Source: Patescibacteria group bacterium
GTDB lineage: Bacteria; Patescibacteriota; Minisyncoccia; UBA6257; JAAZHW01
Direction: 5' to 3'
Assembly (NCBI GenBank): GCA_026415775.1
Contig: JAOAGL010000001.1
Coordinates: 111,057 to 175,056 of the forward strand
DNA length: 64,000 nt
Below, piece by piece: positions 1 through 64,000 of the stretch. Under the pieces are notes generated by a model. The model did not search any database and was not told where the DNA came from. It was given only the letters and a program-made list of their open reading frames with translations. Position 1 is the first letter of the stretch; the number at the start of each line of letters is the position of its first letter. The translations under genes were made by a program, and so were the position numbers.

Positions 1-368
1 TAGATATTGAGCAACAAACAGCTAATAAAGGATTATTATCAGGTATTTCTTCTGCTTGTGCCGAATCGGGTCAATGCACCTTGGTTGATTTTATGGTTGT
101 TGTAAAAAATATCTTTCTTTTATTGCGACAAATCGCTTTTTGGGCAGCGGTTGGATTTGGAATTTATGGTGGTATTACATTGATAATTTCTCAAGGCAAC
201 CCTTCAAAAATTAAAAGTGGTAAAAATATTATTTTGGCAGCTTTTGTTGGATTAATGATTGTTTATGGCGTGAGCTTAATTATAAATATAATTCTTTTGG
301 CTATAAATAAGCAACCGATTAATTTGGAGCAAATTTGGAATCCTCAAATAATATTTGTAAATGAATAA
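1..368 (+). CDS. VirB2/TrbC-like type IV secretion pilin family protein (5' partial; frame is open to the window start)
   Basis: No stop upstream of the tool-listed Met at 81 in this frame back to nt 3, so the ORF enters from outside the window. Has a Cys-x4-Cys pair (SACAESGQC), then a hydrophobic hairpin with a G-NPSKIKSGKNIIL motif that is also found in the next three ORFs. Small size fits a pilin. Confidence 0.5.
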   Translation, partial: DIEQQTANKGLLSGISSACAESGQCTLVDFMVVVKNIFLLLRQIAFWAAVGFGIYGGITLIISQGNPSKIKSGKNIILAAFVGLMIVYGVSLIINIILLAINKQPINLEQIWNPQIIFVNE

Positions 369-945
369 AAATATGATTTTTTACAAATTATTGACCAAAT
401 TTTTTATTTTTTCTATATTGTTAATAGCAGTATTTTTAACAAATTATGCGTTTGCTCAAGAAGGACTTCCTGATCCTTTGGGAGGTAAAACTCTTTTAGG
501 ATTAGCTGAAACGATTGTTAAATGGCTAATGCAGATTGCTGTGCCGTTAACTGCGATTATGACAATCTGGGGTGCAATTTTGATGATGACAGCAATGGGC
601 AATCCTCAAAAAATTAAACAAGCCCAAGGCGCTTTAACTTGGGCGGTAGCTGGATTAGTGGTAATCATTATTTTGCAAGGTTTATTTGAGTTTGGGCAGA
701 CCACTATTTCTGAAGCAGAAGGATTATCCGATTTATTAAATACTATTCAGCAATATTTACTTTTTATTGGAGGCCCATTATCAATAGTTATATTTTTATA
801 CGGCTCCTATTTATTAGGAACTGCTAAACCCGAAAATGTTAAAACAGGAAAAAATATTTTAATTTGGACTTCGGTTGCTTTGGCAATTATTAGTATTTTT
901 ACCGTCGCCAATCTTATCAATATTATTAATCAATTGGCAAAATAA
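361..945 (+). CDS. VirB2/TrbC-like T4SS pilin paralog, internally duplicated (two pilin modules fused)
   Basis: Signal peptide (MNKNMIFYKLLTKFFIFSILLIAVFLTNYAFAQE). Two copies of the TM-hairpin plus motif: GNPQKIKQAQGALTWAVAGLVVIIIL and AKPENVKTGKNILIWTSVALAIISIF. Confidence 0.55.
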   Translation: MNKNMIFYKLLTKFFIFSILLIAVFLTNYAFAQEGLPDPLGGKTLLGLAETIVKWLMQIAVPLTAIMTIWGAILMMTAMGNPQKIKQAQGALTWAVAGLVVIIILQGLFEFGQTTISEAEGLSDLLNTIQQYLLFIGGPLSIVIFLYGSYLLGTAKPENVKTGKNILIWTSVALAIISIFTVANLINIINQLAK

Positions 946-947
946 AT

Positions 948-1298
948 ATGAAGAAAAAAATTGTATTACCATTTTTAATTATTGTTGGTTTAATGCCGAC
1001 AATTTTAATAATGGCCCAAACGAATGAGGCTTTACCCACAATTCAAGTGAAAAATGTAGATGATGTAATTAAAATAATTAACAATGTTGCTGCCTGGATG
1101 TATAGAATTATTTTGGCAATAGCCGGCATTTTTGTTTTAATGGCTGCTTTCACCTTCTTTTCAGCTGGCGAAAAAACAGAAAATGTGAAAAAAGCCAGAA
1201 ATCAAATTTATTATGCGGTAGTGGCTTTAGTGGTAGCTGTTTTAGCTTTTAGTATTAAAGAAATTGTGATTAAAATTTTAACAACGACAACAAAATAA
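948..1298 (+). CDS. VirB2/TrbC-like T4SS pilin paralog
   Basis: Signal peptide, then two TM helices separated by the GEKTENVKKARNQIYYAVVALVVAVLAFSI motif. The 116-aa length and topology are typical of VirB2/TrbC pilins. Confidence 0.55.
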   Translation: MKKKIVLPFLIIVGLMPTILIMAQTNEALPTIQVKNVDDVIKIINNVAAWMYRIILAIAGIFVLMAAFTFFSAGEKTENVKKARNQIYYAVVALVVAVLAFSIKEIVIKILTTTTK

Positions 1299-1345
1299 TA
1301 AAAAATAAAAGGTCGTTTAAATAAAATAATTAAAACAAATTTAAT

Positions 1346-1708
1346 ATGAAAAAAATAAAAGAAATTGGTTTGTGGGTTATAACATTGAGCTTAGTTTTAG
1401 GTCCAGCAGTTTCAGTTTTTGCTCAAACCGTAGCTACAGCCAATACGCCACAACCCAAGGACTTAGGTACTTGGTTGGGCGTCGTAAAAACCGTCTTTCG
1501 ATGGATTTATACTATTATTTTAGTTATATCAGTTGGTCTGGGTCTTTATGCCGCATTTTTATATCTTACTTCTGGAGGAGATGCTGGTAAAGTAAAACAA
1601 GCTAGTAAATATTTGATTTATGCTATTATTGGTTTAGTAGTAGCAGTATTAGCCTTTAGTATTACAAGTATTGTAGGCAGTTTAATTAACGAGCAGATGA
1701 ATGTTTAA
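1346..1708 (+). CDS. VirB2/TrbC-like T4SS pilin paralog
   Basis: Signal peptide ending AQT. Motif GGDAGKVKQASKYLIYAIIGLVVAVLAFSI is almost identical to the preceding paralog. 120 aa. Confidence 0.55.
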   Translation: MKKIKEIGLWVITLSLVLGPAVSVFAQTVATANTPQPKDLGTWLGVVKTVFRWIYTIILVISVGLGLYAAFLYLTSGGDAGKVKQASKYLIYAIIGLVVAVLAFSITSIVGSLINEQMNV

Positions 1709-8667: not shown

Positions 8668-8741
8668 TGGCATTATAAGCCGTAGAGAATCCGGCCGCCC
8701 CGTTCTGTTTTTTACAGGACGGGCGGGGGATAAAATCAATA

Positions 8742-8989: not shown

Positions 8990-9037
8990 CCCGAGGCAGT
9001 GAAAGTAGTTAAATTATTACGAAATTTCTGCCTCGGG
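8990..9037 (+). other. 10-bp stem hairpin within the structured TR-RT spacer
   Basis: cccgaggcag...ctgcctcggg with a 28-nt loop. Additional small hairpins nearby: atgat-ttt-atcat and acgtc-ttgcgat-gacgt. DGR TR-spacer RNAs are known to be structured and needed for cDNA priming. Confidence 0.4.
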
Positions 9038-9080
9038 CCATTAAGCCCCCTTTTAATATAACGTCTTGCGATGACGTAAA

Positions 9081-9103
9081 TATAGATATAGATATAGATA
9101 TAT
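9081..9103 (+). repeat. hexanucleotide microsatellite (TATAGA/ATAGAT, about 3.5 units) abutting the RT start codon
   Basis: tatagatatagatatagatat directly precedes and overlaps the ATG at 9102. Confidence 0.6.
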
Positions 9104-14505: not shown

Positions 14506-14530
14506 TTGCAAAGATTTTTTAGGGTAAAAA

Positions 14531-14555
14531 GCAGGCGAAGCAGAGCTTCGCCTGC
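14531..14555 (+). terminator. Rho-independent terminator
   Basis: gcaggcgaagcagagcttcgcctgc hairpin followed by aattatttt. Confidence 0.5.
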
Positions 14556-14656
14556 AATTATTTTCAAAAACCCCTTTCCTTGACAAAATATAAAAATAAA
14601 GTAGAATTTAGGCAGCTTTTTGAAAAAGAAAATTTTTTTTAAAAGGAGGTTTTACA

Positions 14657-16074: not shown

Positions 16075-16083
16075 AAAAAATAA

Positions 16084-16108
16084 GCCCCGAGACCGAAGGT
16101 CGAGGGGC
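16084..16108 (+). terminator. terminator after GC-island gene
   Basis: gccccgagaccgaaggtcgaggggc imperfect GC stem followed by ttttctttttc. Confidence 0.4.
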
Positions 16109-40183: not shown

Positions 40184-40256
40184 GGGCGCATAGCTCAGCG
40201 GTTAGAGCACAGACCTTATAAGTCTGGGGTCGATGGTTCGAATCCATCTGCGCCCA
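40184..40256 (+). tRNA. tRNA-Ile with UAU anticodon (AUA decoder)
   Basis: GGGCGCATAGCTCAGCGGTTAGAGCACAGACCTTATAAGTCTGGGGTCGATGGTTCGAATCCATCTGCGCCCA. Anticodon loop CTTATAA, so positions 34-36 read TAT. Confidence 0.7.
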
Positions 40257-40382
40257 CACTTTTTTTATTTTTTTATTGTTTTATAATCAATAAAAGAACC
40301 GCCTAAAACTTTGGCGGAAGACTCTTGCAAATTTTTAGTTTTTCTGGTATAATTAAAGTGTTGTCGATAAACAATAAAAAAT

Positions 40383-50277: not shown

Positions 50278-51438
50278 TTATCTGGCAAAGGGATTTTTAG
50301 CGCCGCGGACTTCAAAATGAAGATGACACCCTGGCGAACCGATAACATAACCGCTATTGCCCATTAATCCGATTAATTGTCCCTGCATCACATAATCGCC
50401 TTCTTTAACTTGAACTTGATTTAAGTGAGCGTATAGGGTTTCAGTATTGTTGGGATGTTGAATTTTTATATATTTGCCGTAGCTATTGTCATAAGATGCC
50501 GTTTCTACCAATCCCTCGGCCGCTGCTAAAACCGGAGTATCGCAGCGATTAGCAATATCAACAGCATTTACATTGTGGAGAATGCCCCAATTAAAACCAG
50601 CGACGGGGATGATGTAGTAATATGGATATTCAGGCAAAGAAGAGGTTGCAGCGAATACTTTATAAGTTCTGGGCATTCGGCCATCGGGTATAATAATTTT
50701 TTGTCCTGGTATTAAAGAAGAGCTAGTTAAATTATTGTAAGCAATAATTTTGTCAGTTGCGACAGAGTATAATTCCGCAATTTTTTCTATTGTGTCACCG
50801 GGTTTGATTTCATGCAGAACGCCAGATACTGGTAAAATAATTAATTCTTCGCCGGGAGTGATTCTTTCACTTTTCAAATTATTAGCCCATTTTATAGTAT
50901 CCAAACTTATACCAAATTCAGAGGCAAGACTTAATAACGTATCACCCTTTTGAACTTTATAAATCAAGACACCATTTTTATCCGTTTTAATACTTGTAAG
51001 AATGGGGCTGGGATTTTGTAAGCTATTGTTGTCAATAAGATAATAAATATTGGAGTCGGCGATAGATGAAAACCCCAAACCTTTATTTTCATTAAAACTC
51101 TGATTAACGGCGAGAGCAAAAACGGCTGTATTGTTATTATTTGATGCTAAATTTGTGGTAATTAATTTTGGACCGCCTAAAATTCCTCTGTCCGACTCTT
51201 TGTAAGCTAAAAGTTTATTTTCGTTTGTGTAATTAATGACTATTAAAACAATTCCTAAAATAAACAAAAAGACAACCGTTGGGAGTGGCTGTCTAAAGAA
51301 AAAGAACTTCTCTTTTAACGAAAAGAGGTTTTTTGAATTAAAAATGATAACTTTCAGTTCAATCGTGATCTTTCGAATCAATCGCTTAAAATTGGTGAAA
51401 AGCGTACAAATAAGCTTGTTTAATTGTTTTCTCCTCAA
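50278..51438 (-). CDS. LysM-domain M23 family peptidase
   Basis: Two LysM repeats (YKVQKGDTLLSLASEFGISLDTIKWAN, HEIKPGDTIEKIAELYSV). M23 HxH region GNSGYVIGSPGCHLHFEV. Confidence 0.75.
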   Translation of the reverse strand: MRRKQLNKLICTLFTNFKRLIRKITIELKVIIFNSKNLFSLKEKFFFFRQPLPTVVFLFILGIVLIVINYTNENKLLAYKESDRGILGGPKLITTNLASNNNNTAVFALAVNQSFNENKGLGFSSIADSNIYYLIDNNSLQNPSPILTSIKTDKNGVLIYKVQKGDTLLSLASEFGISLDTIKWANNLKSERITPGEELIILPVSGVLHEIKPGDTIEKIAELYSVATDKIIAYNNLTSSSLIPGQKIIIPDGRMPRTYKVFAATSSLPEYPYYYIIPVAGFNWGILHNVNAVDIANRCDTPVLAAAEGLVETASYDNSYGKYIKIQHPNNTETLYAHLNQVQVKEGDYVMQGQLIGLMGNSGYVIGSPGCHLHFEVRGAKNPFAR

Positions 51439-53562: not shown

Positions 53563-54331
53563 AAAAAGATTAGGACAAAATTTTTTGATTAATAAATCAG
53601 CATTAAAAAAAATTGTCGATGCTTTGGAAATTAAAAAAGATGATATTGTTGTTGAAATTGGCGCTGGCAGTGGCAATTTAACCAGTGAGATTTTTAGAAA
53701 AACTCCTTTTGTTATTGCGGTTGAAAAAGATAAAGAATGGATTGAAATTCTAAAAAAACGTTTAGGAGTTTTTAAAAATGAATGGCCGAAAATTATTGAA
53801 GCAGATATTCGTGATGTTTTAGAAGAAATTTCAAAAACTTATAAAAATTATAAAATCATTGGTAATATCCCTTATTACTTGACTGGTCAACTTTTGCGCA
53901 TTTTTCAGAAATTAAGAAACCCACCCCAATTAATTGTTTTGATGCTCCAAAAAGAAGTGGCTCAAAAAATTTTGGCCAGCCCACCAAACGCTAATTTATT
54001 ATCGAATATAGTTAATCTTTGGTCTAAACCCCGATTGGTTTTTAATTTAAAATCAAAAGATTTTTATCCGCCGCCTAAAGTGTCATCAGCGGTAATTAAA
54101 TTGGAAGTTTTGTCTACTGGTAAAAGATTAAAAAATGAGGAAGAAATAATAGAATTATTAAAAATTGCTTTTAAACAACCACGAAAAACGCTTTTGAATA
54201 ATTTGTCAAGTAAATTTGATAAAGAAAAAATTAGAAAAATCTTAGCGGAATTAAATTTGTCTGAAAAATTAAGACCTTCTGAATTATCGCTTCAATTGTG
54301 GATAACTTTGGCAGAAAAACTTAATAAATAA
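53552..54331 (+). CDS. rsmA: 16S rRNA (adenine1518/1519-N6)-dimethyltransferase
   Basis: KKRLGQNFLIN and VVEIGAGSGNLT SAM motif. ATG at 53552 overlaps the pcrA stop by 11 nt. Confidence 0.85.
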   Translation: MKYKKRLGQNFLINKSALKKIVDALEIKKDDIVVEIGAGSGNLTSEIFRKTPFVIAVEKDKEWIEILKKRLGVFKNEWPKIIEADIRDVLEEISKTYKNYKIIGNIPYYLTGQLLRIFQKLRNPPQLIVLMLQKEVAQKILASPPNANLLSNIVNLWSKPRLVFNLKSKDFYPPPKVSSAVIKLEVLSTGKRLKNEEEIIELLKIAFKQPRKTLLNNLSSKFDKEKIRKILAELNLSEKLRPSELSLQLWITLAEKLNK

Positions 54332-54374
54332 TAATTTTTGCAGTATAATATTAAAGAAGCAAAGAATTTTTAAT

Positions 54375-55193
54375 ATGAAGAGCAAATATTTACAATTAAG
54401 CATAGGAATTTTTATCTTTGCGATTTTTATTTCTTTTTTGATTTTGCAAAACAATAAAACAAATAGTTTAAATGAAAACAACTTAGCTGTGGTTAATTCA
54501 GCTAAAATTAATGCCCCTTCTTCTTTTTCGTTGGAAAAATTAAATCAAAAATTAGCAGCGGATATAGAATCGTTGGATATTAAAGATGAAGATAACCTAA
54601 CTTTAAAAGTGGCTAATGAACTAGCCTCACAAATTATTTCTTTAAACGCCAATAACGATTTGTCCTCGGGAGAATTAATGGTGCCGAACGAGGAATTATT
54701 TAGCGCTGAAATGATTGAGAAATACAAGAATTATTTTTTGGAAAACTTACCTATTACCACTTTTGCTGAATTAAAATTTATCTCAAATGAACAGCCGCCA
54801 TTCACCTCTTTTAAATATTTTGTTGAAACAATAAAAATTTTATATGACAACAAATTAACTGATGATATCTTCCAAGAAAAAATCCAGAGTTTTCTTGATA
54901 ATGAAAATCCAACCTTTTTTAGCGACACAATTAATGATTTAAATTTAGCAATTACCGATTTGAAAAACTTGCCTATTCCCACCTCTTATGCCAATTTGCA
55001 TTTGGACTTGATTAATCTTTTAAACACAAAACTTTCAATACTAAAGGCGCTTTATAATTACCAAAAGGATCCAGTGAGCGCCTTGGTTGCCTCTCAACTG
55101 CTTGAGGATTTGGATACTGCCTATCAGCAATGGATGGCGGCAATGATGCGGAAAATGGAAAGCGATGGTTCGATTAAATATTTTAAGTTTTAA
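54375..55193 (+). CDS. hypothetical membrane-anchored protein
   Basis: N-terminal TM and extracytoplasmic domain. Starts the T4SS-like cluster. Confidence 0.4.
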   Translation: MKSKYLQLSIGIFIFAIFISFLILQNNKTNSLNENNLAVVNSAKINAPSSFSLEKLNQKLAADIESLDIKDEDNLTLKVANELASQIISLNANNDLSSGELMVPNEELFSAEMIEKYKNYFLENLPITTFAELKFISNEQPPFTSFKYFVETIKILYDNKLTDDIFQEKIQSFLDNENPTFFSDTINDLNLAITDLKNLPIPTSYANLHLDLINLLNTKLSILKALYNYQKDPVSALVASQLLEDLDTAYQQWMAAMMRKMESDGSIKYFKF

Positions 55194-56741
55194 ATGAGCA
55201 AAAAAACATTTGCCATTATCACTTTAATTGCTATTTTACTCCTTAATTTAGAAGGGGTTATTGAGGTTAAAAAGGCCAATGCCCAAGTTTCCCTTCCTAC
55301 TGTTGAAAGATCTCTGCCCCCCATACAAGATATGGAACCAGTTATAGAATCAGCACCAGAAGTATACGATGCCGAAAATTGGGGCGAGGTGATGGTTTGT
55401 TCCACGGGGATTTACCAGAGGATTAGTAGTTGGATAAATACCGCATTATCAGTTGTTCTTAATCCAGTTTGTCAGATGTTGGGTCGCGCTTTTAGTTTTT
55501 TGGGGATTGGGGGTACAGCTGTTTCAGGAGAGTGTATTATAAATACTGGTGGCGCTGATACAACCCAGCAATGTAAAGAATGGGTAGCGAAAAAGAAAGC
55601 TTCTTTAAAGGCGAAAATGGCAGAAATGACAAAGTTGTTGTTAAGAATTACGGTTAAAACATTTATGGATCGTCTAGTTTCTAATGCTGTTGACTGGATT
55701 AGCGGTAGAACAACAGGAGATCCTCAGTTTGTTACCAATTGGAGACAATTTTTTAGTGATGTAGTTAATGAAGCATTTGGATTCTTCATTGAAAACTCCC
55801 CATTTTCTCAATTATGCGAACCATTTCGTTATACAGTGCGAGTTGGGACTACTTTGCCTGGTAAGCCACCATTCCCAACTTGTACTTTATCTAGAGTGGT
55901 AAGCAATATTGAATCTTTTTATGATAATTTTTCTAATGGCGGATGGTTGGCGTTTGAGGAATCGTTTTATCCTTGGAATAATGCTTTTGGGGCATACTTG
56001 ATGACCCAAGAATCTTTAAATGCGGAATTGACCGAGGCTCGCGAAGAAGCAGAGAAAAAGACACAAAGCGGATATAAGCCGACTGAGTGGTGTATTAAAA
56101 CCAAAAAAGATCCTGCTACTGGGCAAGAGATATGTGTAGAAAAAGTGGTAAGTATTCCTGGCGAAGCAAAATCCGATGTAACCTCAAAAGTTTTAACCAA
56201 TCAACTTGATAAAGCAGATACATATTTCTTAACCTCAGCTGATCTTAAAGGTTATGCTGAAATGATTGCCCAAGCCATAATGAGTCGTTTGATAAAATCA
56301 GCTAAAGAATTATTGATTGGTGGCAAATGGTATGGTAAGGGGTTATTGAATTTGCCGGAAAAGGGTGATTCAGGTCCATCTTTAAATTTGCGTTATGCGT
56401 GTAAAACATATGGAGGTTCAAAGGTTTGTGAGATTGATGCAGATGGGCCCTATTTTTCCAAGGAGAGTTGTGAAGCGGTTTGTAGTGGTTCATCAATACG
56501 ATTTAAATGCGACGCCCAATTACAAATTTGTGTAGCTGATCCAAACGGCAATTATAGTGATTATGATTCTTGTAATCGAGTTTGTTATCCTACAATAACT
56601 ACCCCTCCGCCATCAGAAAATCGTTATAGCTGTAATGAAACCGAAGGGCTTTGCGAATTAGACCCCAATGGTGATTTTACCAGCCTGACTAGTTGTCAAA
56701 AATATTGTGGTAGCGAACCACCTCCACCGCCGCAGTATTAA
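55194..56741 (+). CDS. secreted cysteine-rich protein with three tandem C-terminal Cys4 modules and a poly-Pro tail
   Basis: Signal peptide. C-terminal YACKTYGGSKVCEIDADGPYFSKESCEAVC, FKCDAQLQICVADPNGNYSDYDSCNRVC, YSCNETEGLCELDPNGDFTSLTSCQKYC. Ends EPPPPPQY. Confidence 0.5.
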   Translation: MSKKTFAIITLIAILLLNLEGVIEVKKANAQVSLPTVERSLPPIQDMEPVIESAPEVYDAENWGEVMVCSTGIYQRISSWINTALSVVLNPVCQMLGRAFSFLGIGGTAVSGECIINTGGADTTQQCKEWVAKKKASLKAKMAEMTKLLLRITVKTFMDRLVSNAVDWISGRTTGDPQFVTNWRQFFSDVVNEAFGFFIENSPFSQLCEPFRYTVRVGTTLPGKPPFPTCTLSRVVSNIESFYDNFSNGGWLAFEESFYPWNNAFGAYLMTQESLNAELTEAREEAEKKTQSGYKPTEWCIKTKKDPATGQEICVEKVVSIPGEAKSDVTSKVLTNQLDKADTYFLTSADLKGYAEMIAQAIMSRLIKSAKELLIGGKWYGKGLLNLPEKGDSGPSLNLRYACKTYGGSKVCEIDADGPYFSKESCEAVCSGSSIRFKCDAQLQICVADPNGNYSDYDSCNRVCYPTITTPPPSENRYSCNETEGLCELDPNGDFTSLTSCQKYCGSEPPPPPQY

Positions 56742-56754
56742 AATTTACTGAAAT

Positions 56755-58707
56755 ATGCTAAGAAAGATAAAAAATATACTTAAAAAAATTAAATTGAGAA
56801 AATTGTCTTTGACTCAAGGGGTGGTTTTGGGTTTGTTTATAAATTTTATAGCAGTTTTTAAAACCCATGCACAAACCTCCTATATTACTTCAAAAGTCAT
56901 TTATGGTATTTTTAGTTGGATTTCACATCTAATTGCTATTATTGCTTCTCAAATCATTATTTTAGAAGCAAAACTCTTGGCTTTAATTATTAATGCTTCC
57001 GTCTTTACAAAAATGCCCGTTGTTCAAACAGGATGGCGAATCGCGCGCGATTTCACCAACATCTTATTTATAATAATTTTAATTTACATTGCTTTTTCTT
57101 ATATTTTGAGAGTGCAATCAAGAGCAACAAAAGGTTTATTGGTCAAAATGATTATTATGGCTATTTTGATTAATTTTAGTTTGATGATTGGCGGAGTTAT
57201 TATAGATTTTTCAAATATGTTTTTCAGATATTTTATTTTCGGTTCTTTGGGCGGAGATTCGAGTGGTTTAAGTGGTGTCAGATTTACTAATGCACTAGCT
57301 GATGCTTTATCATTGCAAACATTTATGAAAAGTCAGTCTGTTCAAGAACCTACAGCTACCTCTACACCAGCAGAGTGGCAAACATGGGTAGAATCACAAA
57401 TGGCGGGTGCTCAAGAAAAAACTGCTTTGATGGGGATTGCAAAATTAATGTTTACCATTATCTTTAGCTTTTTAATGATTATAATTTTTGGCGCTCTCGT
57501 GGGTATTTTATTTGTTCGTCTTTTCTGGTTGTGGATTTTATTAATTTTTGCTCCTCTGGCGTGGGTGATATCGTTAATTTCAATTCCCGGCACGCCGGGC
57601 AATATTGCTAAGCAGTGGTGGGATAAATTTTTGCAGTGGTGTTTTGTAGCTCCAGTAATGGGATTTTTCATTTATTTAGCTTTAGAGACAGCGGGTCATG
57701 TTAAACAACTGACCATTCCTGATAGAATAGTAACTGGAATGAGTTCTGTAATGTATAACCTTCAAGAAATAATGCAAATGTTTTTAGTGGCTGGTTTTAT
57801 TGTTGCGGGGTTGATAGCAGGGGAGAAAATGGGAGCAAAAATTGCTGCTAAGGCGCATGGTATTGTAACCTCGGCTGGCAATAAAGTAAAAGGAGCTGTT
57901 AAAAATAAAGCTTCTTTATGGGCATTGCGAGCTGCTAATGCTCCGGCCACTGGTTTGGAAAAAGCCGCTAGTAAATCCGATGTAGCAAAAGCGCTAATCG
58001 GAATCACTGGATTGGGCATGGCTAGTCGTTATGTTTCCCGCAAAGCCGAGGAGGCTGAAAGTAAGGATTGGAATGAGAGAAAGAAGAAGTACGAATCTGT
58101 TGGCGTTGATCAATTAAAGAAAATGGCTAATTCAGCTTTGATGCCGGCCGAAAGAGCGGCAATGTTCTCGGTTTTAGCTCAAAAAGGAGGAATTGATGAT
58201 TCTAACAAAGATCAAGCTATATCATTGTTAAATAGGTATGATAAAGATTCTTATAAGAAAGTTTTAAGTGAACACCCTGAATGGCATCCTGCTGTTCAAA
58301 CAGCGGTCAAGAGTAATGATATACAACAAGTAAAAAATGTTATTAAATCAAATTCTGACATTGATATAAATAAATTTAATATTAGCAAAATTAAAGATGA
58401 AACTATTCTTTCAGCTGTTGTTGAGCTAAAGATTGATTTGGATCCAGAAAAAGCAGCATTAGAATTAAGAAATCTTGATTTAGATTTGTTAAATAAATTA
58501 ACCACGCATATTAAGGAAAGATTCAAAGGTTTAGATATTGAAAGCAAAAAAGAATTTGCCAAAAAGATGAAAAGTGGTTATACCGGTCGACAATGGTTTA
58601 ATGCAAATTTAAACGCTGATTTAGAAGCAGCATTAGAAGAAGAAGCATTAAAAGAACAAAAACAAAAAGAAGAAAAAGAAGAACCGAAAGTTAAATTGTA
58701 TAAATAA
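56755..58707 (+). CDS. polytopic membrane protein, possible VirB6/TrbL-like T4SS channel component
   Basis: At least 8 TM helices in the N-terminal two-thirds, then a hydrophilic K/E-rich C-terminal domain. Sits in a cluster with a VirB4 ATPase. Confidence 0.4.
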   Translation: MLRKIKNILKKIKLRKLSLTQGVVLGLFINFIAVFKTHAQTSYITSKVIYGIFSWISHLIAIIASQIIILEAKLLALIINASVFTKMPVVQTGWRIARDFTNILFIIILIYIAFSYILRVQSRATKGLLVKMIIMAILINFSLMIGGVIIDFSNMFFRYFIFGSLGGDSSGLSGVRFTNALADALSLQTFMKSQSVQEPTATSTPAEWQTWVESQMAGAQEKTALMGIAKLMFTIIFSFLMIIIFGALVGILFVRLFWLWILLIFAPLAWVISLISIPGTPGNIAKQWWDKFLQWCFVAPVMGFFIYLALETAGHVKQLTIPDRIVTGMSSVMYNLQEIMQMFLVAGFIVAGLIAGEKMGAKIAAKAHGIVTSAGNKVKGAVKNKASLWALRAANAPATGLEKAASKSDVAKALIGITGLGMASRYVSRKAEEAESKDWNERKKKYESVGVDQLKKMANSALMPAERAAMFSVLAQKGGIDDSNKDQAISLLNRYDKDSYKKVLSEHPEWHPAVQTAVKSNDIQQVKNVIKSNSDIDINKFNISKIKDETILSAVVELKIDLDPEKAALELRNLDLDLLNKLTTHIKERFKGLDIESKKEFAKKMKSGYTGRQWFNANLNADLEAALEEEALKEQKQKEEKEEPKVKLYK

Positions 58708-58743
58708 AATAAAAAACAGAAAATTTTTTAAACAAATAAAATT

Positions 58744-59919
58744 ATGAATAATAATACATTAATTAATTCAGAAGAAACAATAGAAAATATTAGAAAAAGA
58801 ATGGATAAATTACCTGATAACATTCAGAAGATTCTTATTAGTAATGAGTTGGCCGATTATTTTTTAGAATTAGATCGTCAAAACTATTTGACGATGGAAC
58901 AATTTGATGTAATGGTAGAGACAACACATCAAGTTTTTTTGGGCATGATTAATCCGAGTGTTTTTCTCCCGTTATTGTCCGGCAAATTAATAGATAAAGG
59001 ACTTCATCCTGTCATTGCCAAGGAAATTGCTCAAAAAATCGAAAGTAAACTCATTGCTCCAATAAGAGATGATTTAGAAAAAATTTATCATCGTTTTTCA
59101 GCGATGGAAAAATTAGAAGGAAAAACCCAAGAAGAAGTCCAAAAACAAAAAGAAGAAATATCGAAACCTTTAGAAGCGCAAGAAACACCCCCCACCTCAT
59201 TAATTATTGAAAGTCAAAAATTGCCACAAGAAACTTCTGGGGGAGAGATTAAGTCAATGGACACGATTATTAAGCCCAAATCAGAAGAAATTGCTCCACC
59301 CATTCAACCATCAGAAGAGAAGCCAAGGCGTTCCTTTTTGTCATTTTTGAAATTCAAACAACCAACTGAAGAAAAACCTGCGGAAAAAGTAATTATTGGG
59401 AAAGAAGAAGAATCCAAACCAGTTTTGGAGGAATCTTCACCATGGCGAATTAGCTTTGAGGATGTTCAACCAGCCAAAGAAAAAGTAGTTTCAGAAATTG
59501 AGTTAAAACACGAGGAAGAAATTAAACCAATTGGAAAGATAGAAAAACCAGTTTTTGAAAAAGAGGAAATAATTCAGAAAGAAGGAACTCCCACCATACC
59601 CGCTGAAACCATACCAGCAATGCAAGCAGCCGCACCTCCCCTAGAGAAAAAGTTAGAACCCCCCATTCCTGAAATGAAAACAGCCGAACCAATGATAGAA
59701 AAAGAAATTTTCCCAAGCGCTAAGCCGCTATCAGAACCCCCAGAGATAAAACATGAAACAATAAACTTAACACAAAATAAACCTTCGTTAGAAGAGCAAG
59801 CGCCAGAATCGGCCACGATTAAGGAATCCCCCAAAGAAGAACCAGAAAAGATTAAAGAAGGAGATTCACAGAATGTTCCCGCTGAGAATGTAATTGATTT
59901 AAGAAAACTGAAATTCTAA
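58744..59919 (+). CDS. hypothetical E/K/P-rich protein
   Basis: Low-complexity acidic or proline-rich C-terminal half. Confidence 0.35.
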   Translation: MNNNTLINSEETIENIRKRMDKLPDNIQKILISNELADYFLELDRQNYLTMEQFDVMVETTHQVFLGMINPSVFLPLLSGKLIDKGLHPVIAKEIAQKIESKLIAPIRDDLEKIYHRFSAMEKLEGKTQEEVQKQKEEISKPLEAQETPPTSLIIESQKLPQETSGGEIKSMDTIIKPKSEEIAPPIQPSEEKPRRSFLSFLKFKQPTEEKPAEKVIIGKEEESKPVLEESSPWRISFEDVQPAKEKVVSEIELKHEEEIKPIGKIEKPVFEKEEIIQKEGTPTIPAETIPAMQAAAPPLEKKLEPPIPEMKTAEPMIEKEIFPSAKPLSEPPEIKHETINLTQNKPSLEEQAPESATIKESPKEEPEKIKEGDSQNVPAENVIDLRKLKF

Positions 59920-59931
59920 AAATTAAATAAT

Positions 59932-60336
59932 ATGCCGACAACACAAGTTCCACAATTTATTAATTTAGAAAGCAAAATTGTTGGGCCGTTAACCCTTCGT
60001 CAATTTTTATTTCTGGGGGGCGGAGGAGTTTTAATTTTTATTTTAAATTCTATTTTAACAACAGGTCTATGGATTTTAGTAAGCATTGTTATTGGTTTAA
60101 TTTCAATTGCTTTGGCTTTTGTGAAAATTAACGAGCAGCCGCTTCATAAAATCCTAATCAACGCTTTAAAATTTTATATTAATCCTCGTTTATATACTTG
60201 GAAAAAACCACAAGCAACAAAGCCATTATTAAAAGAAACAAAACCAATTGTTGCTAAAAAAGAAGAAAAAAAGCGATTAACCGTCGAAGAATTAGAAGCA
60301 ATAGCTAAACAATTAGAAGAAAAAAATAATCAATAA
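59932..60336 (+). CDS. PrgI/VirB3-like small membrane protein
   Basis: 134 aa. INLESKIVGPLTLRQFLFLGGGGVLIFIL then a second TM. Directly upstream of the VirB4-like ATPase cluster, as in Gram-positive PrgI-PrgJ arrangements. Confidence 0.5.
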   Translation: MPTTQVPQFINLESKIVGPLTLRQFLFLGGGGVLIFILNSILTTGLWILVSIVIGLISIALAFVKINEQPLHKILINALKFYINPRLYTWKKPQATKPLLKETKPIVAKKEEKKRLTVEELEAIAKQLEEKNNQ

Positions 60337-60338
60337 TT

Positions 60339-61043
60339 ATGATAGGAGGCGCTTCTACAGAAAAATTCATAGATATTGAGACAATCAAAGACGATTGCGT
60401 TATTTTAAAAGACGGCTCTTTAAGGGCGGTTTTAATGGTTTCTGGCATTAACTTTGATTTATTGTCGGAAACTGAACAAGAGATAGTGTTAAATGCTTAC
60501 CAGAATTTATTAAATTCTTTAGATTTTCCACTGCAAATTCTTGTTCATTCTCGAAAAATCAATCTTGATAATTATTTGCAAAAGATTAAAGAAATTGAAA
60601 AAAACGAGCAGAACGAACTTTTGAAATTGCAAATTCAAGAATACCGCAATTTTATCGATGAATTAATAAAAAGCACCAATATTATGACAAAAAGATTTTA
60701 TGTTGTTATTCCTTATTCGCCATCACTTATTTCCGCAAGTAGCTCGGCTAATCCATTAACGCAAATTTTTCAAAAATTACCTTTTGGCAAGCAAAAAGCA
60801 AATATTCAACAACAAGAAATTGATGCCGAAACACAATTTGTTAATAATAAAATGCAATTATATCATCGCGTCAGCGCTGTTATTTCTGCTTTGAAGCCAA
60901 TGGGTTTAAATGCCATCCGTCTTAAAACGCCGGAGTTAATTGAATTATATTACAACTTTTATAATCCCGAAAAACAAGAAAGGGTCGGTTTGGCTATTAC
61001 AGCCGAACTAGAACAATTAGAAGAAGAACCATTAATAGAGTAA
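60339..61043 (+). CDS. hypothetical protein in T4SS-like cluster
   Basis: 234 aa, no TM. Start overlaps the upstream stop closely, suggesting translational coupling. Confidence 0.35.
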   Translation: MIGGASTEKFIDIETIKDDCVILKDGSLRAVLMVSGINFDLLSETEQEIVLNAYQNLLNSLDFPLQILVHSRKINLDNYLQKIKEIEKNEQNELLKLQIQEYRNFIDELIKSTNIMTKRFYVVIPYSPSLISASSSANPLTQIFQKLPFGKQKANIQQQEIDAETQFVNNKMQLYHRVSAVISALKPMGLNAIRLKTPELIELYYNFYNPEKQERVGLAITAELEQLEEEPLIE

Positions 61044-61047
61044 AAAT

Positions 61048-62850
61048 ATGCCATTTTTACCTTTTTCATCAAAAAAAGACGAAGAAATAAAAATTCCGAA
61101 ACCATCGCGAACGGGCTTGCAAACCATTAGAGAAATTTTAACCCCACCCGCTTTGGAGATAGAGTCAACATATGTACGCCTGGGCGATTTGTATACCAAA
61201 ACTTACTATATTATTTCGTATCCGCGCTATCTTACTTCTGGTTGGTTTTCGCCTGTCCTCAATATTGACCAAACAGTTGATGTTTCTATTTTTGTTCAGC
61301 CAGTTGATACAGGAGTAGCCTTAAAACAATTACGAAGAAAAGTAGCTCAAGTAGAAGCTCAACTTTTAGAAAGAGAAGAAAAGGGATTGGTGAGAGATCC
61401 AGTGTTAGAAACCGCTTATCAAGATTTAGAAAACTTACGTGACGCCTTGCAGCAAGCAAGAGAAAAACTTTTTGAAGTCGGTGTTTATATTGCTATTTAC
61501 GCCTCTAATCTCAAAGAATTGGAAGAAATTGAGCAGAAAATTATAAGTTTCTTGGAGGGGAGAATGGTCTATATAAAACCAGCACTTTTTCAACAATCGG
61601 AGGGGTTATTATCTTGCTTTCCTTTGAATAAGGATTATTTGAGCGTTCATTCAACATTGAATTCTTCGCCTGTTTCTACTTTTTTCCCTTTTATTTCTTT
61701 GGATTTAACTTCAGATAAAGGAATTTTTTACGGCATTAATCGACATAATAATAGTTTGATTATTTTTGATAGGTTCTCTTTAGAAAATGGTAATATGGTA
61801 ATTTTTGCTAAATCCGGTAGCGGTAAATCTTATTTTTGTAAATTGGAGGTTTTGCGTTCTTTAATGATGGGAACCGATGTAATTATTATTGATCCCGAGA
61901 AAGAATACCAGCATTTAGCAGAAACAGTTGGAGGTTCATTTATAAATATTTCTTTAACTTCAGAGCACCATATTAATCCTTTTGATTTGCCACCGCCTCG
62001 TCCTGATGAAAAACCCGAAGAGGTTTTGAAATCAAACATTTTAAATCTTACGGGTTTATTAAGAATTATGCTTGGTGAATTAACTTCTGAACAAATTGGA
62101 ATTTTGGATAGAGCGATTGCTGAAACTTATGCCTCCCGCGATATTACTCCAGAAAGCGATTTTACCAAATTAACTCCCCCATTAATGGAGGATTTGCAAG
62201 CGGTGTTGGAAAATATGGAGGGTGGTGCTGAATTGGCTGATAGATTATTTAAATTTACGCGAGGCACTTTCGCTGGTTTTCTCAATAAACCCACTAATGT
62301 TGATATTGATAATCGTTTGGTTGTTTTTGCCATTCGTGATTTAGAAGATGAGCTGCGGCCAATTGCAATGTATATGGTTTTGAATTTTATTTGGAATTTA
62401 ATTCGTTCGCAACTAAAAAGAAGAATTTTGATTGTTGATGAAGCATGGTGGATGATGAAATATCCAGCAGGCGCAGATTTCTTGTTTGGATTAGTAAAGC
62501 GTTGTCGAAAATATCATATGGGCGTGACAACAATTACCCAAGATGTTGAAGATTTTATAAGAACGCCGCAAGGGAAACCAATTATCACAAATTCCGCGTT
62601 GCAATTGCTTTTAAAGCAATCGCCTGCTTCTATTGAGGTGGTAGCCGAAACATTTAATTTAACTGAAGCAGAGAAACAATTGCTTTTAAGCGCTAATGTA
62701 GGAGAGGGGATATTTTTTGCGGGTGCAAAACATGTGGCTATTAAAGTAATTGCCTCTTATACCGAGGATCAGATAATTACTACCAATCCAGCTCAAATGC
62801 TTCAAATTGAAAAAGCCAAAGAAATGTTTGATAAAAGCTTTGGGGCATAG
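61048..62850 (+). CDS. VirB4/TraE/PrgJ-family type IV secretion ATPase
   Basis: Walker A FAKSGSGKSYFCK and Walker B ILIVDEAWWMM. About 600-aa size and domain order match the VirB4 C-terminal ATPase. Confidence 0.75.
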   Translation: MPFLPFSSKKDEEIKIPKPSRTGLQTIREILTPPALEIESTYVRLGDLYTKTYYIISYPRYLTSGWFSPVLNIDQTVDVSIFVQPVDTGVALKQLRRKVAQVEAQLLEREEKGLVRDPVLETAYQDLENLRDALQQAREKLFEVGVYIAIYASNLKELEEIEQKIISFLEGRMVYIKPALFQQSEGLLSCFPLNKDYLSVHSTLNSSPVSTFFPFISLDLTSDKGIFYGINRHNNSLIIFDRFSLENGNMVIFAKSGSGKSYFCKLEVLRSLMMGTDVIIIDPEKEYQHLAETVGGSFINISLTSEHHINPFDLPPPRPDEKPEEVLKSNILNLTGLLRIMLGELTSEQIGILDRAIAETYASRDITPESDFTKLTPPLMEDLQAVLENMEGGAELADRLFKFTRGTFAGFLNKPTNVDIDNRLVVFAIRDLEDELRPIAMYMVLNFIWNLIRSQLKRRILIVDEAWWMMKYPAGADFLFGLVKRCRKYHMGVTTITQDVEDFIRTPQGKPIITNSALQLLLKQSPASIEVVAETFNLTEAEKQLLLSANVGEGIFFAGAKHVAIKVIASYTEDQIITTNPAQMLQIEKAKEMFDKSFGA

Positions 62851-62884
62851 CTTAATTTTTTAATAAAATTTATTTATAATATAT

Positions 62885-63376
62885 ATGGAGCAAGAAAATG
62901 AAGATTTACAATTGAATCAAGAAGAAGAGGATACAGAATTAAAAGAAGAAGCTGAAGAAACTCCGGCGGGGCCTAAAATTTCTTCAATTGAATTTTTTAT
63001 TTGGCCTTTACCTGCGGCGGTTTTATCTGATTTGGTTGATTTACTTCAGTTAACGGGGGTTGGTGTGATTATTAGCTGGGCAGTTAATATTTTGTGCGGC
63101 GGTTCATTGACATTATGGTTATTTATGAAAGGGCTGAGGGGGGAATTTATGTTGCTGGGTAGTGTTATCGATATGATTCCCGTTGTAGGTTCATTACCGA
63201 CAAAAACAACTATAATGATTTGGATATATGTTCAACAGAAACATCCAGAGAAATTAAAGATGGCGGCAAAAGGATTAGAGGTTGCTGGGAAAGTAAAACC
63301 TGAATTGGCTGCTGCTGGCAAAGCATTAGAAGCGGCGAATAATATGACCTCACAAAAAAATGAAGAATCTCAATAA
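62885..63376 (+). CDS. hypothetical membrane protein
   Basis: Acidic N-terminus, 3 TM helices. Confidence 0.35.
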   Translation: MEQENEDLQLNQEEEDTELKEEAEETPAGPKISSIEFFIWPLPAAVLSDLVDLLQLTGVGVIISWAVNILCGGSLTLWLFMKGLRGEFMLLGSVIDMIPVVGSLPTKTTIMIWIYVQQKHPEKLKMAAKGLEVAGKVKPELAAAGKALEAANNMTSQKNEESQ

Positions 63377-64000
63377 ACAAAAAATTTTAGTTCTTTTGAT
63401 AATGACACTTTTGATAATTAAAGGAGATTTTGTGTTTGGGCAAACTTTGAAAAACCCCGAAAGTTTTCTTTATTTAACTTGGGAGAGCGATGGAATGATT
63501 CCGATTGAATATCAAGGCAAGGCATTGCCAGCGCGTTTCGCGGTAATAAAGGTTTCGGTTCAACCTCTAATTTATTCTGCAAAAAATGGTAATTATTTAA
63601 ATTCCGATCAGTGGAGTTATCGCTGGTATGTAAACGATAATTTAATAAATGAAGGAGTAGGATTAAAATCAATTAGATTTCGACCAAAAGATTTCAATAA
63701 AAATTCTTATAATGTAAAAGTTTCAATTTTAACATCCGCATCAAGTCAGCCCGTTGAAAAAACCATAACAATTAATTTGGCTCAGCCAGCCGTATTTTTC
63801 CGAATATTCGGGGAAAAGAAAATTGTTCAAGGTCAGTATTCGAGTAGTGGATCATTATTGCAATTAGAAGCAGTTCCATTTTTCTTTGGCGGCGACGACC
63901 CAAAACAACTTCATTATATGTGGCGAATTAATAATGAAAGGGTAAGTAATCTGGATAATGAACGCATATTGATATTGCCTAAAGCCGAGGAGGGAGAAAA
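63360..64000 (+). CDS. secreted hypothetical protein (3' partial, runs off the window)
   Basis: ATG at 63360. Signal peptide MKNLNKQKILVLLIMTLLIIKGDFVFGQ. Stop-free by manual translation to nt 64000. Not in the ORF track because it is unterminated. Confidence 0.5.
   Translation, partial: MKNLNKQKILVLLIMTLLIIKGDFVFGQTLKNPESFLYLTWESDGMIPIEYQGKALPARFAVIKVSVQPLIYSAKNGNYLNSDQWSYRWYVNDNLINEGVGLKSIRFRPKDFNKNSYNVKVSILTSASSQPVEKTITINLAQPAVFFRIFGEKKIVQGQYSSSGSLLQLEAVPFFFGGDDPKQLHYMWRINNERVSNLDNERILILPKAEEGE

What the first reader, a model, noticed from the sequence alone, without database searches (positions are those of the whole stretch)
54375..64000. T4SS-like gene cluster centred on a VirB4-family ATPase with VirB3/PrgI-like and polytopic VirB6-like partners
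Nine co-directional, tightly packed genes. They include a PrgI/VirB3-like two-TM protein (59932-60336) and a 600-aa VirB4/TraE ATPase with clear Walker A/B motifs (61048-62850). Others are a 650-aa polytopic membrane protein, several secreted or anchored hypothetical proteins and a Cys-rich secreted protein. No relaxase or VirD4 coupling protein is seen in the window. This may therefore be the minimal T4SS-like apparatus described in CPR bacteria, proposed for DNA uptake or host attachment, rather than a conjugative element. It is plausibly the machinery that assembles the VirB2-like pilins encoded at 1-1708.
Basis: partly seen in the sequence, partly recalled or inferred. Interest (0 to 1): 0.6.

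Follow-up and report, generated by a model that had tools for sequence, protein, structure and literature searches.

The report
Chromosomal pilus-type T4SS of a Paceibacterium

Summary

Three corrections:
- The 234-aa gene at 60339-61043 is not an anonymous hypothetical. It is the TrsD-type N-terminal domain of VirB4, which here is a separate gene (present in 70 of 71 related species loci).
- The operon has 11 genes and runs about 2.2 kb past the window end. The extra genes include its own VirB2-type pilin, and a hairpin terminator follows the last gene.
- The whole array sits in one fixed chromosomal slot (ksgA | array | jag-yidC-rnpA-rpmH) across dozens of Paceibacteria species.

I found no relaxase, VirD4 or integrase in about 80 kb examined. 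All of this matches the Patescibacteria T4SS published in 2023-2025.

The added value is modest. One unannotated subunit, p515, belongs to a very large family with no Pfam, NCBIfam or PDB match. Relatives in the same slot carry variable carbohydrate-binding or glycosidase C-terminal modules.

The parts
54375..55193 (+). p272: N-terminally anchored extracytoplasmic protein and first gene of the operon. Its function is unknown. 12 of 36 orthologues carry bacterial TSP3 (Ca-binding) repeats; the window copy has no hit.
   Evidence: One hydrophobic helix at residues 6-24. No Pfam, NCBIfam or PDB match. TSP3_bac in 12 of 36 family members. Present in 34 of 42 eligible loci. The best + strand promoter-like hexamers lie at 54308-54349, though the overall count is at chance level.
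55194..56741 (+). p515: secreted or anchored protein with 20 Cys. It has a strongly conserved core (about residues 135-370) followed by three short Cys-rich repeats. It belongs to a very large family that has no model.
   Evidence: Alignments A4 and A7 show invariant Cys, Trp, Pro and Gly residues. 5,170 cluster representatives at E<=1e-3. No Pfam, NCBIfam or PDB match. A 20%-identical homologue occupies the same array slot. Relatives in that slot carry C-terminal GH5 cellulase, discoidin/galactose-binding, Ig-like or beta-helix modules. The AF2 model is unusable, pLDDT 45.
56755..58707 (+). p650: extended VirB6-like polytopic channel subunit. It has a helical membrane domain (about residues 17-365), a disordered linker, and a helical hydrophilic C-terminal domain (about residues 430-640).
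58744..59919 (+). p391: predicted cytoplasmic protein with a conserved helical N-terminal domain of about 110 aa followed by a long E/K/P-rich low-complexity tail. Function unknown.
   Evidence: No hydrophobic helix. No Pfam, NCBIfam or family-wide hit. Only the N-terminal domain is conserved. Present in 54 of 61 eligible loci.
59932..60336 (+). PrgI/VirB3-like small membrane protein, the membrane anchor partner of VirB4.
   Evidence: PF12666 PrgI, E 3.5e-11, above the cut-off; TcpE, E 1.2e-4. It aligns to the VirB3-like N-terminal part of the Mycoplasma VirB3-VirB4 fusion model. Present in 69 of 70 eligible loci.
60339..61043 (+). TrsD/TraD-type protein: the N-terminal domain of VirB4, encoded as a separate gene.
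   Evidence: NCBIfam matches: VirB4_plasma positions 103-263 (E 1.4e-13), TrsD (E 1.9e-11), TIGR00929 VirB4_CagE positions 5-179 (E 2.2e-8), CD1110 positions 4-140. Precomputed Pfam: TraC-like and VirB4_TrbE_N. The family HMM hits pSK41 TrsD at 17.4 bits. It is a separate ORF in 70 of 71 eligible loci. It lies in a different reading frame from VirB4, which starts 4 nt after its stop.
61048..62850 (+). VirB4 ATPase: the middle and C-terminal P-loop part of the protein.
   Evidence: NF045971 CD1110 VirB4, E 2.8e-112, 376 bits against a cut-off of 325, covering positions 179-734 of 752. Pfam P-loop_TraG and AAA_10. PDB 4ag5 VirB4, E 1.5e-46, and TrwK, E 8.7e-7. About 60% identical across 80 Patescibacteria genomes.
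62885..63376 (+). p163: small membrane protein with an acidic N-terminus and a hydrophobic core. Function unknown.
   Evidence: Hydrophobic segments at residues 45-79. No family match. Present in 55 of 76 eligible loci.
63360..64000 (+). p241 (cut by the window end; the full gene would end at window-equivalent 64085): anchored or secreted protein built of Ig/PKD-like repeats.
   Evidence: The full sequence comes from L003, which is 100% identical to window 58733-64000. Family members hit BiPBP_C, PKD, Ig_3 and Big domains. Present in 63 of 68 eligible loci. Beyond the window lie a 252-aa VirB2-type pilin with a Cys-rich tail (equivalent 64121-64879; the 97% variant's orthologue hits T4SS_pilin at E 5e-8), an anchored beta-propeller protein p426 (equivalent 64884-66164; PD40/DPPIV_N hits in the family), and a 12-bp hairpin terminator (equivalent 66177-66203).
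81..1708 (+). Array of four VirB2-type pilin genes, about 53 kb upstream of the operon. These are probable substrates of the machine. The first gene is cut by the window start.
   Evidence: PF18895 T4SS_pilin hits with E 1e-4 to 2e-16, and TrbC/VirB2 at 1.4e-4. They are homologous to the in-operon pilin, jackhmmer E 1e-18 to 1e-28. The first gene is 149 aa in the strain-variant contig.
50278..51438 (-). LysM + M23 peptidoglycan peptidase, divergently placed 3 kb upstream. It is a possible stand-in for the missing VirB1-type wall hydrolase. Membership in the system is uncertain.
   Evidence: Peptidase_M23, E 1e-27, and LysM, E 7e-24. It holds the same position in distant loci L087 and L093. The literature notes M23/LysM-containing VirB1-like proteins in Patescibacteria (PMC12102498). 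Its conserved position may simply reflect housekeeping synteny.

Best explanation
This is the chromosomally fixed, vertically inherited type IV secretion system of a Paceibacteria (Parcubacteria, CPR/Patescibacteria) bacterium. It derives from the monoderm MPF-FATA conjugation machinery but is no longer part of a mobile element.

Shown here:
- An 11-gene operon encodes a cytoplasmic-membrane engine made of VirB6-like p650, PrgI/VirB3, and a VirB4 ATPase split into TrsD (N-domain) and a 600-aa ATPase.
- It also encodes a VirB2-type pilin, and four more pilin genes lie 53 kb away.
- It further encodes extracytoplasmic accessory proteins: p272, p515, Ig-like p241 and beta-propeller p426.

Inferred:
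- The VirB4 hexamer, held at the membrane by VirB3 and docked on the VirB6 platform, uses ATP to extract VirB2-type pilins from the membrane. It polymerises them into a conjugative-type pilus or short conduit through the wall.
- The surface proteins form or decorate the distal part.
- The p515 slot protein has lineage-variable sugar-binding or glycosidase modules in relatives, so it is the best candidate for the part that engages the host cell envelope.
- With no coupling protein or relaxase, the system most likely serves contact with a host cell, or exchange of proteins or other molecules with it, rather than conjugative DNA transfer.
For: The operon structure and its true end come.

The gene order Ksg-272-515-650-391-B3-TrsD-B4-163-241-pilin-426-jag/yidC/rnpA is conserved across 80 species-level genomes, with VirB4 about 60% identical. 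Presence ratios are TrsD 70/71, PrgI 69/70, p650 47/51, pilin 57/62 and YidC 49/51.

The window and both 10-kb flanks hold only housekeeping genes, plus RNase P RNA, tmRNA and tRNAs. No relaxase, VirD4 or integrase is present.

The closest curated families are monoderm types: CD1110, the Mycoplasma ICE VirB4 and the Thermoanaerobacter VirB4 structure. pSK41 has the same TrsC-TrsD-TrsE order.

Published work describes exactly this system. Patescibacteria VirB4 forms a clade nested in MPF-FATA, with TrsD, PrgI, VirB6 and VirB2 arrays, no relaxase, and a position next to ksgA, rnpA and rpmH (PMC12102498). The homologous cluster and its pilin array are essential for epibiotic growth of Southlakia epibionticum (PMC10633639; PMC12857230).

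The surface role of p515 rests on its signal or anchor sequence, its 20 Cys, and the variable C-terminal GH5, discoidin, Ig-like and beta-helix modules of same-slot relatives.
Against: No experiment exists for any Paceibacteria system; the essentiality data are from Saccharibacteria, whose accessory genes differ.

I found no VirB8-like or VirB1-like subunit in the operon. The wall-spanning part is therefore unexplained.

The in-operon 'pilin' is 252 aa with a Cys-rich tail, which is unlike a canonical polymerising VirB2.

I examined only about 80 kb of a contig of at least 242 kb. The literature reports VirD4-like genes far from virB4 in most Patescibacteria genomes, so a distant coupling protein is not excluded.

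I did not run a VirB4 phylogeny. The p515 structure could not be modelled.
Confidence: 0.82

Rival explanations
1. The cluster is the mating-pair-formation module of an integrated conjugative element or plasmid, and it transfers DNA by conjugation.
For: VirB4, TrsD, VirB3 and VirB6 are homologous to conjugation proteins of Gram-positive plasmids such as pSK41 and pCF10. A VirD4-like gene could lie elsewhere in the genome, as the literature reports for many Patescibacteria.
Against: About 80 kb examined holds no relaxase, T4CP, integrase or recombinase. The array sits in the same slot between ksgA and jag-yidC-rnpA in dozens of species whose VirB4 is only about 60% identical. That pattern indicates vertical inheritance, not mobility. 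GC content matches the surrounding sequence.
Confidence: 0.03
2. The machine imports DNA or nucleotides from the environment or the host, as the ComB T4SS of Helicobacter or the archaeal Ced system do. This would feed a cell that cannot make nucleotides.
For: The system lacks a relaxase and a T4CP, as DNA-uptake T4SSs do. VirB4 gives weak partial hits to the archaeal DNA-import ATPases CedB (E 4e-11) and CedD. The organism is a reduced CPR bacterium.
Against: The CedB score is 42 bits against a cut-off of 700, and the hit covers only the P-loop. In Saccharibacteria, competence depends on type IV pili and ComEC. A comEC deletion is viable while the T4SS is essential, so essentiality does not arise from ComEC-dependent DNA uptake (PMC12857230). 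No ComEC or ComF gene lies in or beside this operon.
Confidence: 0.1
3. The machine is mainly an effector translocator. It injects proteins or enzymes into the host bacterium, and the pilins form the conduit rather than an adhesive filament.
For: Some T4SSs that lack a T4CP still secrete proteins, for example Ptl and Brucella VirB (PMC12102498). Wang et al. suggest protein export as one option. The cytoplasmic p391, with its long disordered tail, could be an adaptor or a substrate.
Against: No candidate effector, chaperone or secretion signal was identified. All the other accessory proteins have Sec-type signals or anchors, so they do not need the T4SS channel for export. This rival overlaps with the best explanation rather than excluding it.
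Confidence: 0.2

Closest known systems
Patescibacteria-clade T4SS as surveyed by Quinonero-Coronel et al. 2025 (PMC12102498), Paceibacteria/Microgenomatia genomic context
   Same: VirB4 has a separate TrsD gene next to it. The locus has a PrgI-type VirB3, a VirB6-like protein, VirB2-type pilins both near virB4 and in a separate array, and no relaxase or nearby T4CP. It is chromosomal and lies next to ksgA, rnpA and rpmH.
   Different: Nothing essential differs. This report adds fold-level support for VirB6 in a class where sequence profiles mostly fail. It defines a fixed 11-gene order. It also describes the unannotated p515, p272, p241, p426, p391 and p163 families.
T4SS of Southlakia epibionticum ML1, SEML1_0006-0019 (Wang et al. 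2023, PMC10633639), the only experimentally probed Patescibacteria T4SS
   Same: The core order VirB6 ... PrgI - TrsD-like - VirB4 is the same. Both have an array of VirB2-type pilins, and neither has a recognisable relaxase or coupling protein in the cluster.
   Different: The Saccharibacteria cluster has a phage-tail-lysozyme/glucosaminidase (0006), an NTF2-like VirB8-type protein (0012) and two proteins of about 1,000-1,100 aa (0007, 0011). Its VirB6 is 1,088 aa and its six pilins sit beside the cluster. The window's cluster instead has p272, p515, p391, p163, Ig-like p241, one long pilin and beta-propeller p426, and its pilin array lies 53 kb away. Essentiality has been shown only for the Saccharibacteria system.
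pGO1/pSK41/pIP501 subclass of MPF-FATA conjugative T4SSs of Firmicutes
   Same: The order TrsC (VirB3-like) - TrsD - TrsE (VirB4 without its N-domain) is identical. pSK41 also has a TrbL-family VirB6-like protein (TrsL) and a small CagC/VirB2-like protein (TrsB).
   Different: pSK41 is a plasmid with a relaxase, a VirD4-like TrsK, a CHAP/SLT hydrolase TrsG and a topoisomerase. None of these is in the window's operon. The six accessory families here have no detectable counterpart in pSK41 or pCF10.
VirB6/TrwI of plasmid R388 and DotA of Legionella Dot/Icm (solved T4SS channel/platform subunits)
   Different: Sequence identity is 8-15% and there is no significant sequence-profile match. p650 has an extra helical hydrophilic C-terminal domain of about 210 residues, making it an 'extended VirB6'. 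No VirB5 partner was found.

Membership tests
Type IV secretion system (VirB4-based), generic | VirB4-family ATPase with Walker A and B motifs | tested here: met
   NF045971, 376 bits against a cut-off of 325. PDB VirB4 4ag5, E 1.5e-46. Walker A is AKSGSGKS and Walker B is ILIVDE.
Type IV secretion system (VirB4-based), generic | VirB3-like small membrane partner next to VirB4 | tested here: met
   PF12666 PrgI, 43.9 bits against a cut-off of 27.
Type IV secretion system (VirB4-based), generic | VirB6-like polytopic membrane subunit | tested here: met
Type IV secretion system (VirB4-based), generic | VirB8-like bitopic NTF2-fold subunit | tested here: inconclusive
   The bitopic candidates p272 and p241 show no VirB8, TcpC, PrgL or NTF2 signal in profile-to-PDB, member-wise Pfam or HMM searches against pCF10/pSK41.
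Type IV secretion system (VirB4-based), generic | VirB1-like peptidoglycan hydrolase | tested here: inconclusive
   The operon has none. A LysM-M23 peptidase sits 3 kb upstream and is syntenic in distant loci, but a functional link is unproven.
Patescibacteria-clade chromosomal T4SS (PMC12102498; PMC10633639) | VirB4 belongs to the monophyletic Patescibacteria clade nested in MPF-FATA | tested here: inconclusive
   I built no tree. Two proxies agree. The best 80 genome hits are Patescibacteria-type MAGs by record title, many named Paceibacterota or Parcubacteria lineages, at 58-85% identity. The best curated families are the MPF-FATA types CD1110 and the Mycoplasma ICE VirB4.
Patescibacteria-clade chromosomal T4SS (PMC12102498; PMC10633639) | Separate TrsD (VirB4 N-domain) gene adjacent to virB4 | tested here: met
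   Present in 70 of 71 related loci.
Patescibacteria-clade chromosomal T4SS (PMC12102498; PMC10633639) | VirB2-type pilin genes near virB4 and/or in tandem arrays | tested here: met
   The in-operon pilin hits PF18895 at E 5e-8, and a four-gene array lies at 81-1708.
Patescibacteria-clade chromosomal T4SS (PMC12102498; PMC10633639) | No relaxase and no coupling protein near virB4; chromosomal position near ksgA, rnpA and rpmH | tested here: met
   Searches cover about 80 kb. The rest of the genome was not available.
Conjugative element (plasmid/ICE) with MPF-FATA T4SS | Relaxase and VirD4/TcpA-type coupling protein | tested here: not met
   About 80 kb holds none. The only FtsK-like protein is the housekeeping FtsK, with its alpha and gamma domains.
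Conjugative element (plasmid/ICE) with MPF-FATA T4SS | Integrase/excision module and variable insertion site | tested here: not met
   No integrase is present. The chromosomal slot is identical across dozens of species.
DNA-import T4SS-like systems (archaeal Ced, Helicobacter ComB) | ATPase is an equivalog of CedB/CedD or ComB4, with the cognate partners | tested here: not met
   CedB scores 42 bits against a cut-off of 700, and CedD 21 bits against 600. No Ced or ComB partners were detected.

The most novel reading that the evidence does not exclude
The p515 slot protein may define a new, widespread T4SS subunit family: 5,170 cluster representatives and no Pfam, NCBIfam or PDB relative. Its conserved Cys-bearing core would dock on the machine or pilus. 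Its lineage-variable C-terminal modules (GH5 cellulase, discoidin/galactose-binding, Ig-like, beta-helix; three Cys-rich repeats in this window) would bind or cut host-envelope polysaccharide. On this reading it is a host-range-determining tip or adhesin, taking the roles held by VirB5 or VirB1 in classical systems. Together with p272, Ig-like p241 and beta-propeller p426, it would form a Paceibacteria-specific extracellular module with no counterpart in any described T4SS.
Probability: 0.35. Interest if true: 0.55.

Novelty: new member of a known kind. Interest (0 to 1): 0.3.

Why it matters
Patescibacteria make up a large share of uncultured bacteria. In the one tractable species their T4SS is essential for growth on the host, yet what it transports and how it spans the envelope remain unknown.

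This locus adds no new kind of system. It does provide a clean, complete and highly conserved 11-gene Paceibacteria version, with fold-level identification of the VirB6 subunit. It also points to a large uncharacterised subunit family (p515) whose modular sugar-binding or glycosidase tails make it a concrete candidate for the host-contact part. That hypothesis could be tested by structure prediction with deep alignments, or by genetics in cultivable relatives.

Tried and rejected
- AF2 model of p515 from a 25-sequence alignment: mean pLDDT was 45, so I ran no fold search on it.
- Sequence profiles of p650, p272, p241 and p515 (narrow and broad) against all PDB sequences: only coiled-coil or low-complexity noise.
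- HHalign of family alignments against single pSK41/pCF10 proteins: no power, since even the PrgI-against-PrgI control failed. I replaced it with HMM searches. Only TrsD to TrsD, and weakly p650 to TrsL, were meaningful.
- A possible lytic-transglycosylase-like motif in p515 ('EES..P.NN..GA.LM.Q', read by eye): not supported. There is no SLT or lysozyme hit in Pfam, NCBIfam or PDB, the Glu is not conserved in distant members, and there is no match to TrsG or PrgK.
- The idea that the 1,112-aa family member P0197 is the Saccharibacteria SEML1_0007 orthologue: rejected. The relatives of P0197 that carry a source name are Paceibacteria. Whether p515 has a Saccharibacteria counterpart remains open.
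- The four small genes beyond RNase Y as a second pilin array: not pilins by jackhmmer.
- PF19590, precomputed on some p650 homologues, could not be checked because it is absent from the local Pfam copy.
- The first comparison of L001 with the window was a script error. BLAST then showed L001 is a 97% strain variant and L003 is the identical continuation.

Full report
**Observation.** The gaps between the eleven genes of the full operon are 0, 13, 36, 12, 2, 4, 34, -17, 35 and 4 nt. The window is ordinary chromosome at about 33% GC. It carries RNase P RNA, tmRNA and six tRNAs, and housekeeping genes including DNA ligase, LeuRS, FtsH, FtsK, RtcB, UvrD and KsgA.

**Identities of the recognisable genes.**
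- 59932-60336 is a PrgI/VirB3-family protein: PF12666, E 3.5e-11, above Pfam's cut-off.
- 61048-62850 is a VirB4 ATPase. It passes the NCBIfam equivalog cut-off for the CD1110 VirB4 family (376 against 325 bits). It also matches the Mycoplasma ICE VirB4, F-type TraC and TIGR00929 models. Its best solved relative is the Thermoanaerobacter VirB4 (4ag5, E 1.5e-46), ahead of TrwK. It is not FtsK/HerA; a standard FtsK with alpha and gamma domains lies at 25781-27964.
- The 600-aa protein covers only positions 179-734 of the 752-position CD1110 model. The missing N-terminal domain is the preceding 234-aa gene, 60339-61043. That gene matches positions 103-263 of the Mycoplasma VirB3-VirB4 fusion model (E 1.4e-13), the TrsD/TraD family (E 1.9e-11) and positions 5-179 of TIGR00929. 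It also carries the precomputed Pfam domains TraC-like and VirB4_TrbE_N.
- The split is not an assembly artefact. TrsD is a separate ORF in 70 of 71 related species loci. The staphylococcal plasmid pSK41 has the same TrsC-TrsD-TrsE order.

**The true extent of the cluster.** An exact-protein look-up recovered four contigs. L003 is 100% identical to window 58733-64000, and L001 (242 kb) is a 97% strain variant. The ninth gene (p241, starting at 63360) ends at window-equivalent 64085. It is followed by a 252-aa protein with a VirB2-type pilin domain; the L001 orthologue hits PF18895 at E 5e-8. Next come a 426-aa anchored beta-propeller protein and a 12-bp G+C-rich hairpin. After that lie convergent jag-yidC-rnpA-rpmH, then a sigma factor, HU and RNase Y. 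The 10 kb upstream of the window start holds RecG, GyrA and similar genes. In about 80 kb there is no relaxase, VirD4/TcpA-type coupling protein, integrase or recombinase.

**Conservation.** A scan of one genome per species returned 538 relatives, of which I kept the best 80. They are Patescibacteria-type MAGs by record title, many named as Paceibacterota or Parcubacteria lineages such as Azam-, Wolfe-, Jorgensen-, Terry-, Taylor-, Kaiser- and Nomurabacteria. VirB4 is 58-85% identical to the window's protein. Iterative searches with every operon protein show the order (UvrD) KsgA - p272 - p515 - p650 - p391 - VirB3 - TrsD - VirB4 - p163 - p241 - pilin - p426 - jag/yidC/rnpA in most loci.

Presence among loci with enough flanking sequence:

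| Component | Present / eligible |
|---|---|
| TrsD | 70/71 |
| PrgI | 69/70 |
| p650 | 47/51 |
| p391 | 54/61 |
| p515 | 34/45 |
| p272 | 34/42 |
| p163 | 55/76 |
| p241 | 63/68 |
| pilin | 57/62 |
| p426 | 51/55 |
| YidC | 49/51 |
| RnpA | 47/49 |

A fixed slot across such divergent genomes indicates vertical inheritance, not a mobile element.

**The unannotated accessory genes.**
- p272 is N-terminally anchored. A third of its orthologues carry bacterial TSP3 calcium-binding repeats.
- p241 relatives hit Ig, PKD and BiPBP_C domains.
- p426 relatives hit PD40 and DPPIV_N beta-propeller models.
- p391 has no hydrophobic helix. It has a conserved N-terminal domain of about 110 aa and a long low-complexity tail.
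- p163 is a small membrane protein.
- None of these resembles any pSK41 Trs or pCF10 Prg/Pcf protein.
- I found no VirB8-like or VirB1-like subunit in the operon. A LysM-M23 peptidase 3 kb upstream keeps its position in distant loci and might supply wall remodelling, but that is conjecture.

**p515.** This 515-aa protein has 20 Cys. Its core is strongly conserved, with invariant Cys, Trp, Pro and Gly residues, and is followed by three short Cys-rich repeats.
- It has no Pfam, NCBIfam or PDB relative, and its AF2 model failed at pLDDT 45.
- An exhaustive profile search finds 5,170 cluster representatives at E <= 1e-3 and 1,775 at E <= 1e-30. The shared region is profile positions of about 135-370.
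- A homologue only 20% identical occupies the same slot of the same array.
- Other members keep the core but carry different C-terminal modules: GH5 cellulase, discoidin/galactose-binding plus surface Ig-like, right-handed beta-helix, TIG, SdrD-B and InlB B-repeat. Two of these were confirmed to sit in the same slot, between the p272-like gene and the next gene of the array, which is the VirB6-like gene where the contig extends that far.
- A conserved docking core with swappable glycan-binding or glycan-cutting tails is what one expects of a surface-exposed, target-recognising part. That reading is inference.

**Mechanism.**
- Shown: the gene content, order, conservation and context described above.
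- From established knowledge of T4SSs: VirB4 hexamers are tethered by VirB3 and sit on the VirB6 platform. VirB4 is the ATPase that drives pilus biogenesis (stated in PMC12102498).
- Inferred here: the machine polymerises the VirB2-type pilins, meaning the in-operon one and the four at 81-1708. Those five are mutually homologous. The Sec-exported accessory proteins build or decorate the extracellular part. The function is host contact or exchange, not conjugation.
- Support comes from Saccharibacteria. There the homologous cluster and its pilin array are essential for epibiotic growth, and it has no recognisable relaxase or coupling protein (PMC10633639). Its essentiality does not run through ComEC-dependent DNA uptake (PMC12857230).

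**Comparison with the literature and novelty.** Quinonero-Coronel et al. 2025 (PMC12102498) surveyed 3,035 Patescibacteria genomes. They describe the same picture:
- a VirB4 clade nested in MPF-FATA;
- TrsD as the most abundant partner;
- PrgI-type VirB3;
- scarce VirB6, VirB8 and VirB1 by sequence;
- VirB2 pilins near virB4 and in arrays of 2-11 genes;
- almost no relaxases;
- location near KsgA, RnpA and RpmH in Paceibacteria and Microgenomatia.

The finding is therefore a new member of a known kind. What this analysis adds is the corrected gene model (split VirB4, 11 genes, its own pilin, a terminator) and fold-level evidence for VirB6. It also adds numbers for the fixed Paceibacteria gene order, and the recognition of p515 as a large family without any model whose tails are modular.

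**Limits.** I built no VirB4 tree. Only about 80 kb of the genome was examined. No structures were obtained for p272, p241, p426, p391 or p163. Nothing here is experimental.

Noticed in passing
window 6672-10142: A complete diversity-generating retroelement. The target gene (6672-8279) has a type IV pilin-like N_methyl N-terminus and an FGE-sulfatase/C-type-lectin domain. The variable repeat is at 8100-8224 and the template repeat at 8742-8865. They are 90-92% identical, and nearly all mismatches fall at template adenines. The bAvd accessory gene is at 8308-8667 and the reverse transcriptase at 9102-10142.
   Followed up: yes
window 81-1708: A tandem array of four sequence-divergent VirB2-type pilin genes. 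One of them (361-945) contains two pilin domains. The first is cut by the window start and is 149 aa in the strain-variant contig.
   Followed up: partly
window 50278-51438 (- strand): A LysM + M23 peptidoglycan peptidase sits divergently upstream of uvrD-ksgA and the T4SS operon. It holds the same position in distantly related loci (L087, L093). It is a possible wall-remodelling partner for the T4SS, or the shared position may just reflect conserved housekeeping synteny.
   Followed up: partly
window 14001-16100: A local G+C island (45.7% against about 33% elsewhere). It contains a 484-aa TTG-start ORF (14620-16074) with no Pfam hit and long antisense ORFs. No Rfam family was found there. It could be an unrecognised RNA gene or foreign DNA.
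   Followed up: no
window 34598-38176: A 1,192-aa protein whose only recognisable domain is a lamin-tail domain (LTD). It is probably a giant surface protein.
   Followed up: no
window 40184-40257: A tRNA-Ile with a TAT anticodon, which is unusual for bacteria. Most bacteria read AUA with a lysidine-modified CAT tRNA.
   Followed up: no
alignment A6 (p391 family; window 58744-59919): Most p391 orthologues end in a conserved C-terminal 'DPYRE' motif after the disordered Pro-rich tail. The window's copy ends differently (...IDLRKLKF). This might be a short docking peptide.
   Followed up: no
P0003; L093 6443-7117: A p650 homologue 76% identical to the window's protein is labelled 'Candidatus Aenigmatarchaeota archaeon' in NCBI, most likely from a mis-binned contig. 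In L093 an IS200-like Y1 transposase gene is inserted between uvrD and ksgA, just upstream of the array.
   Followed up: no
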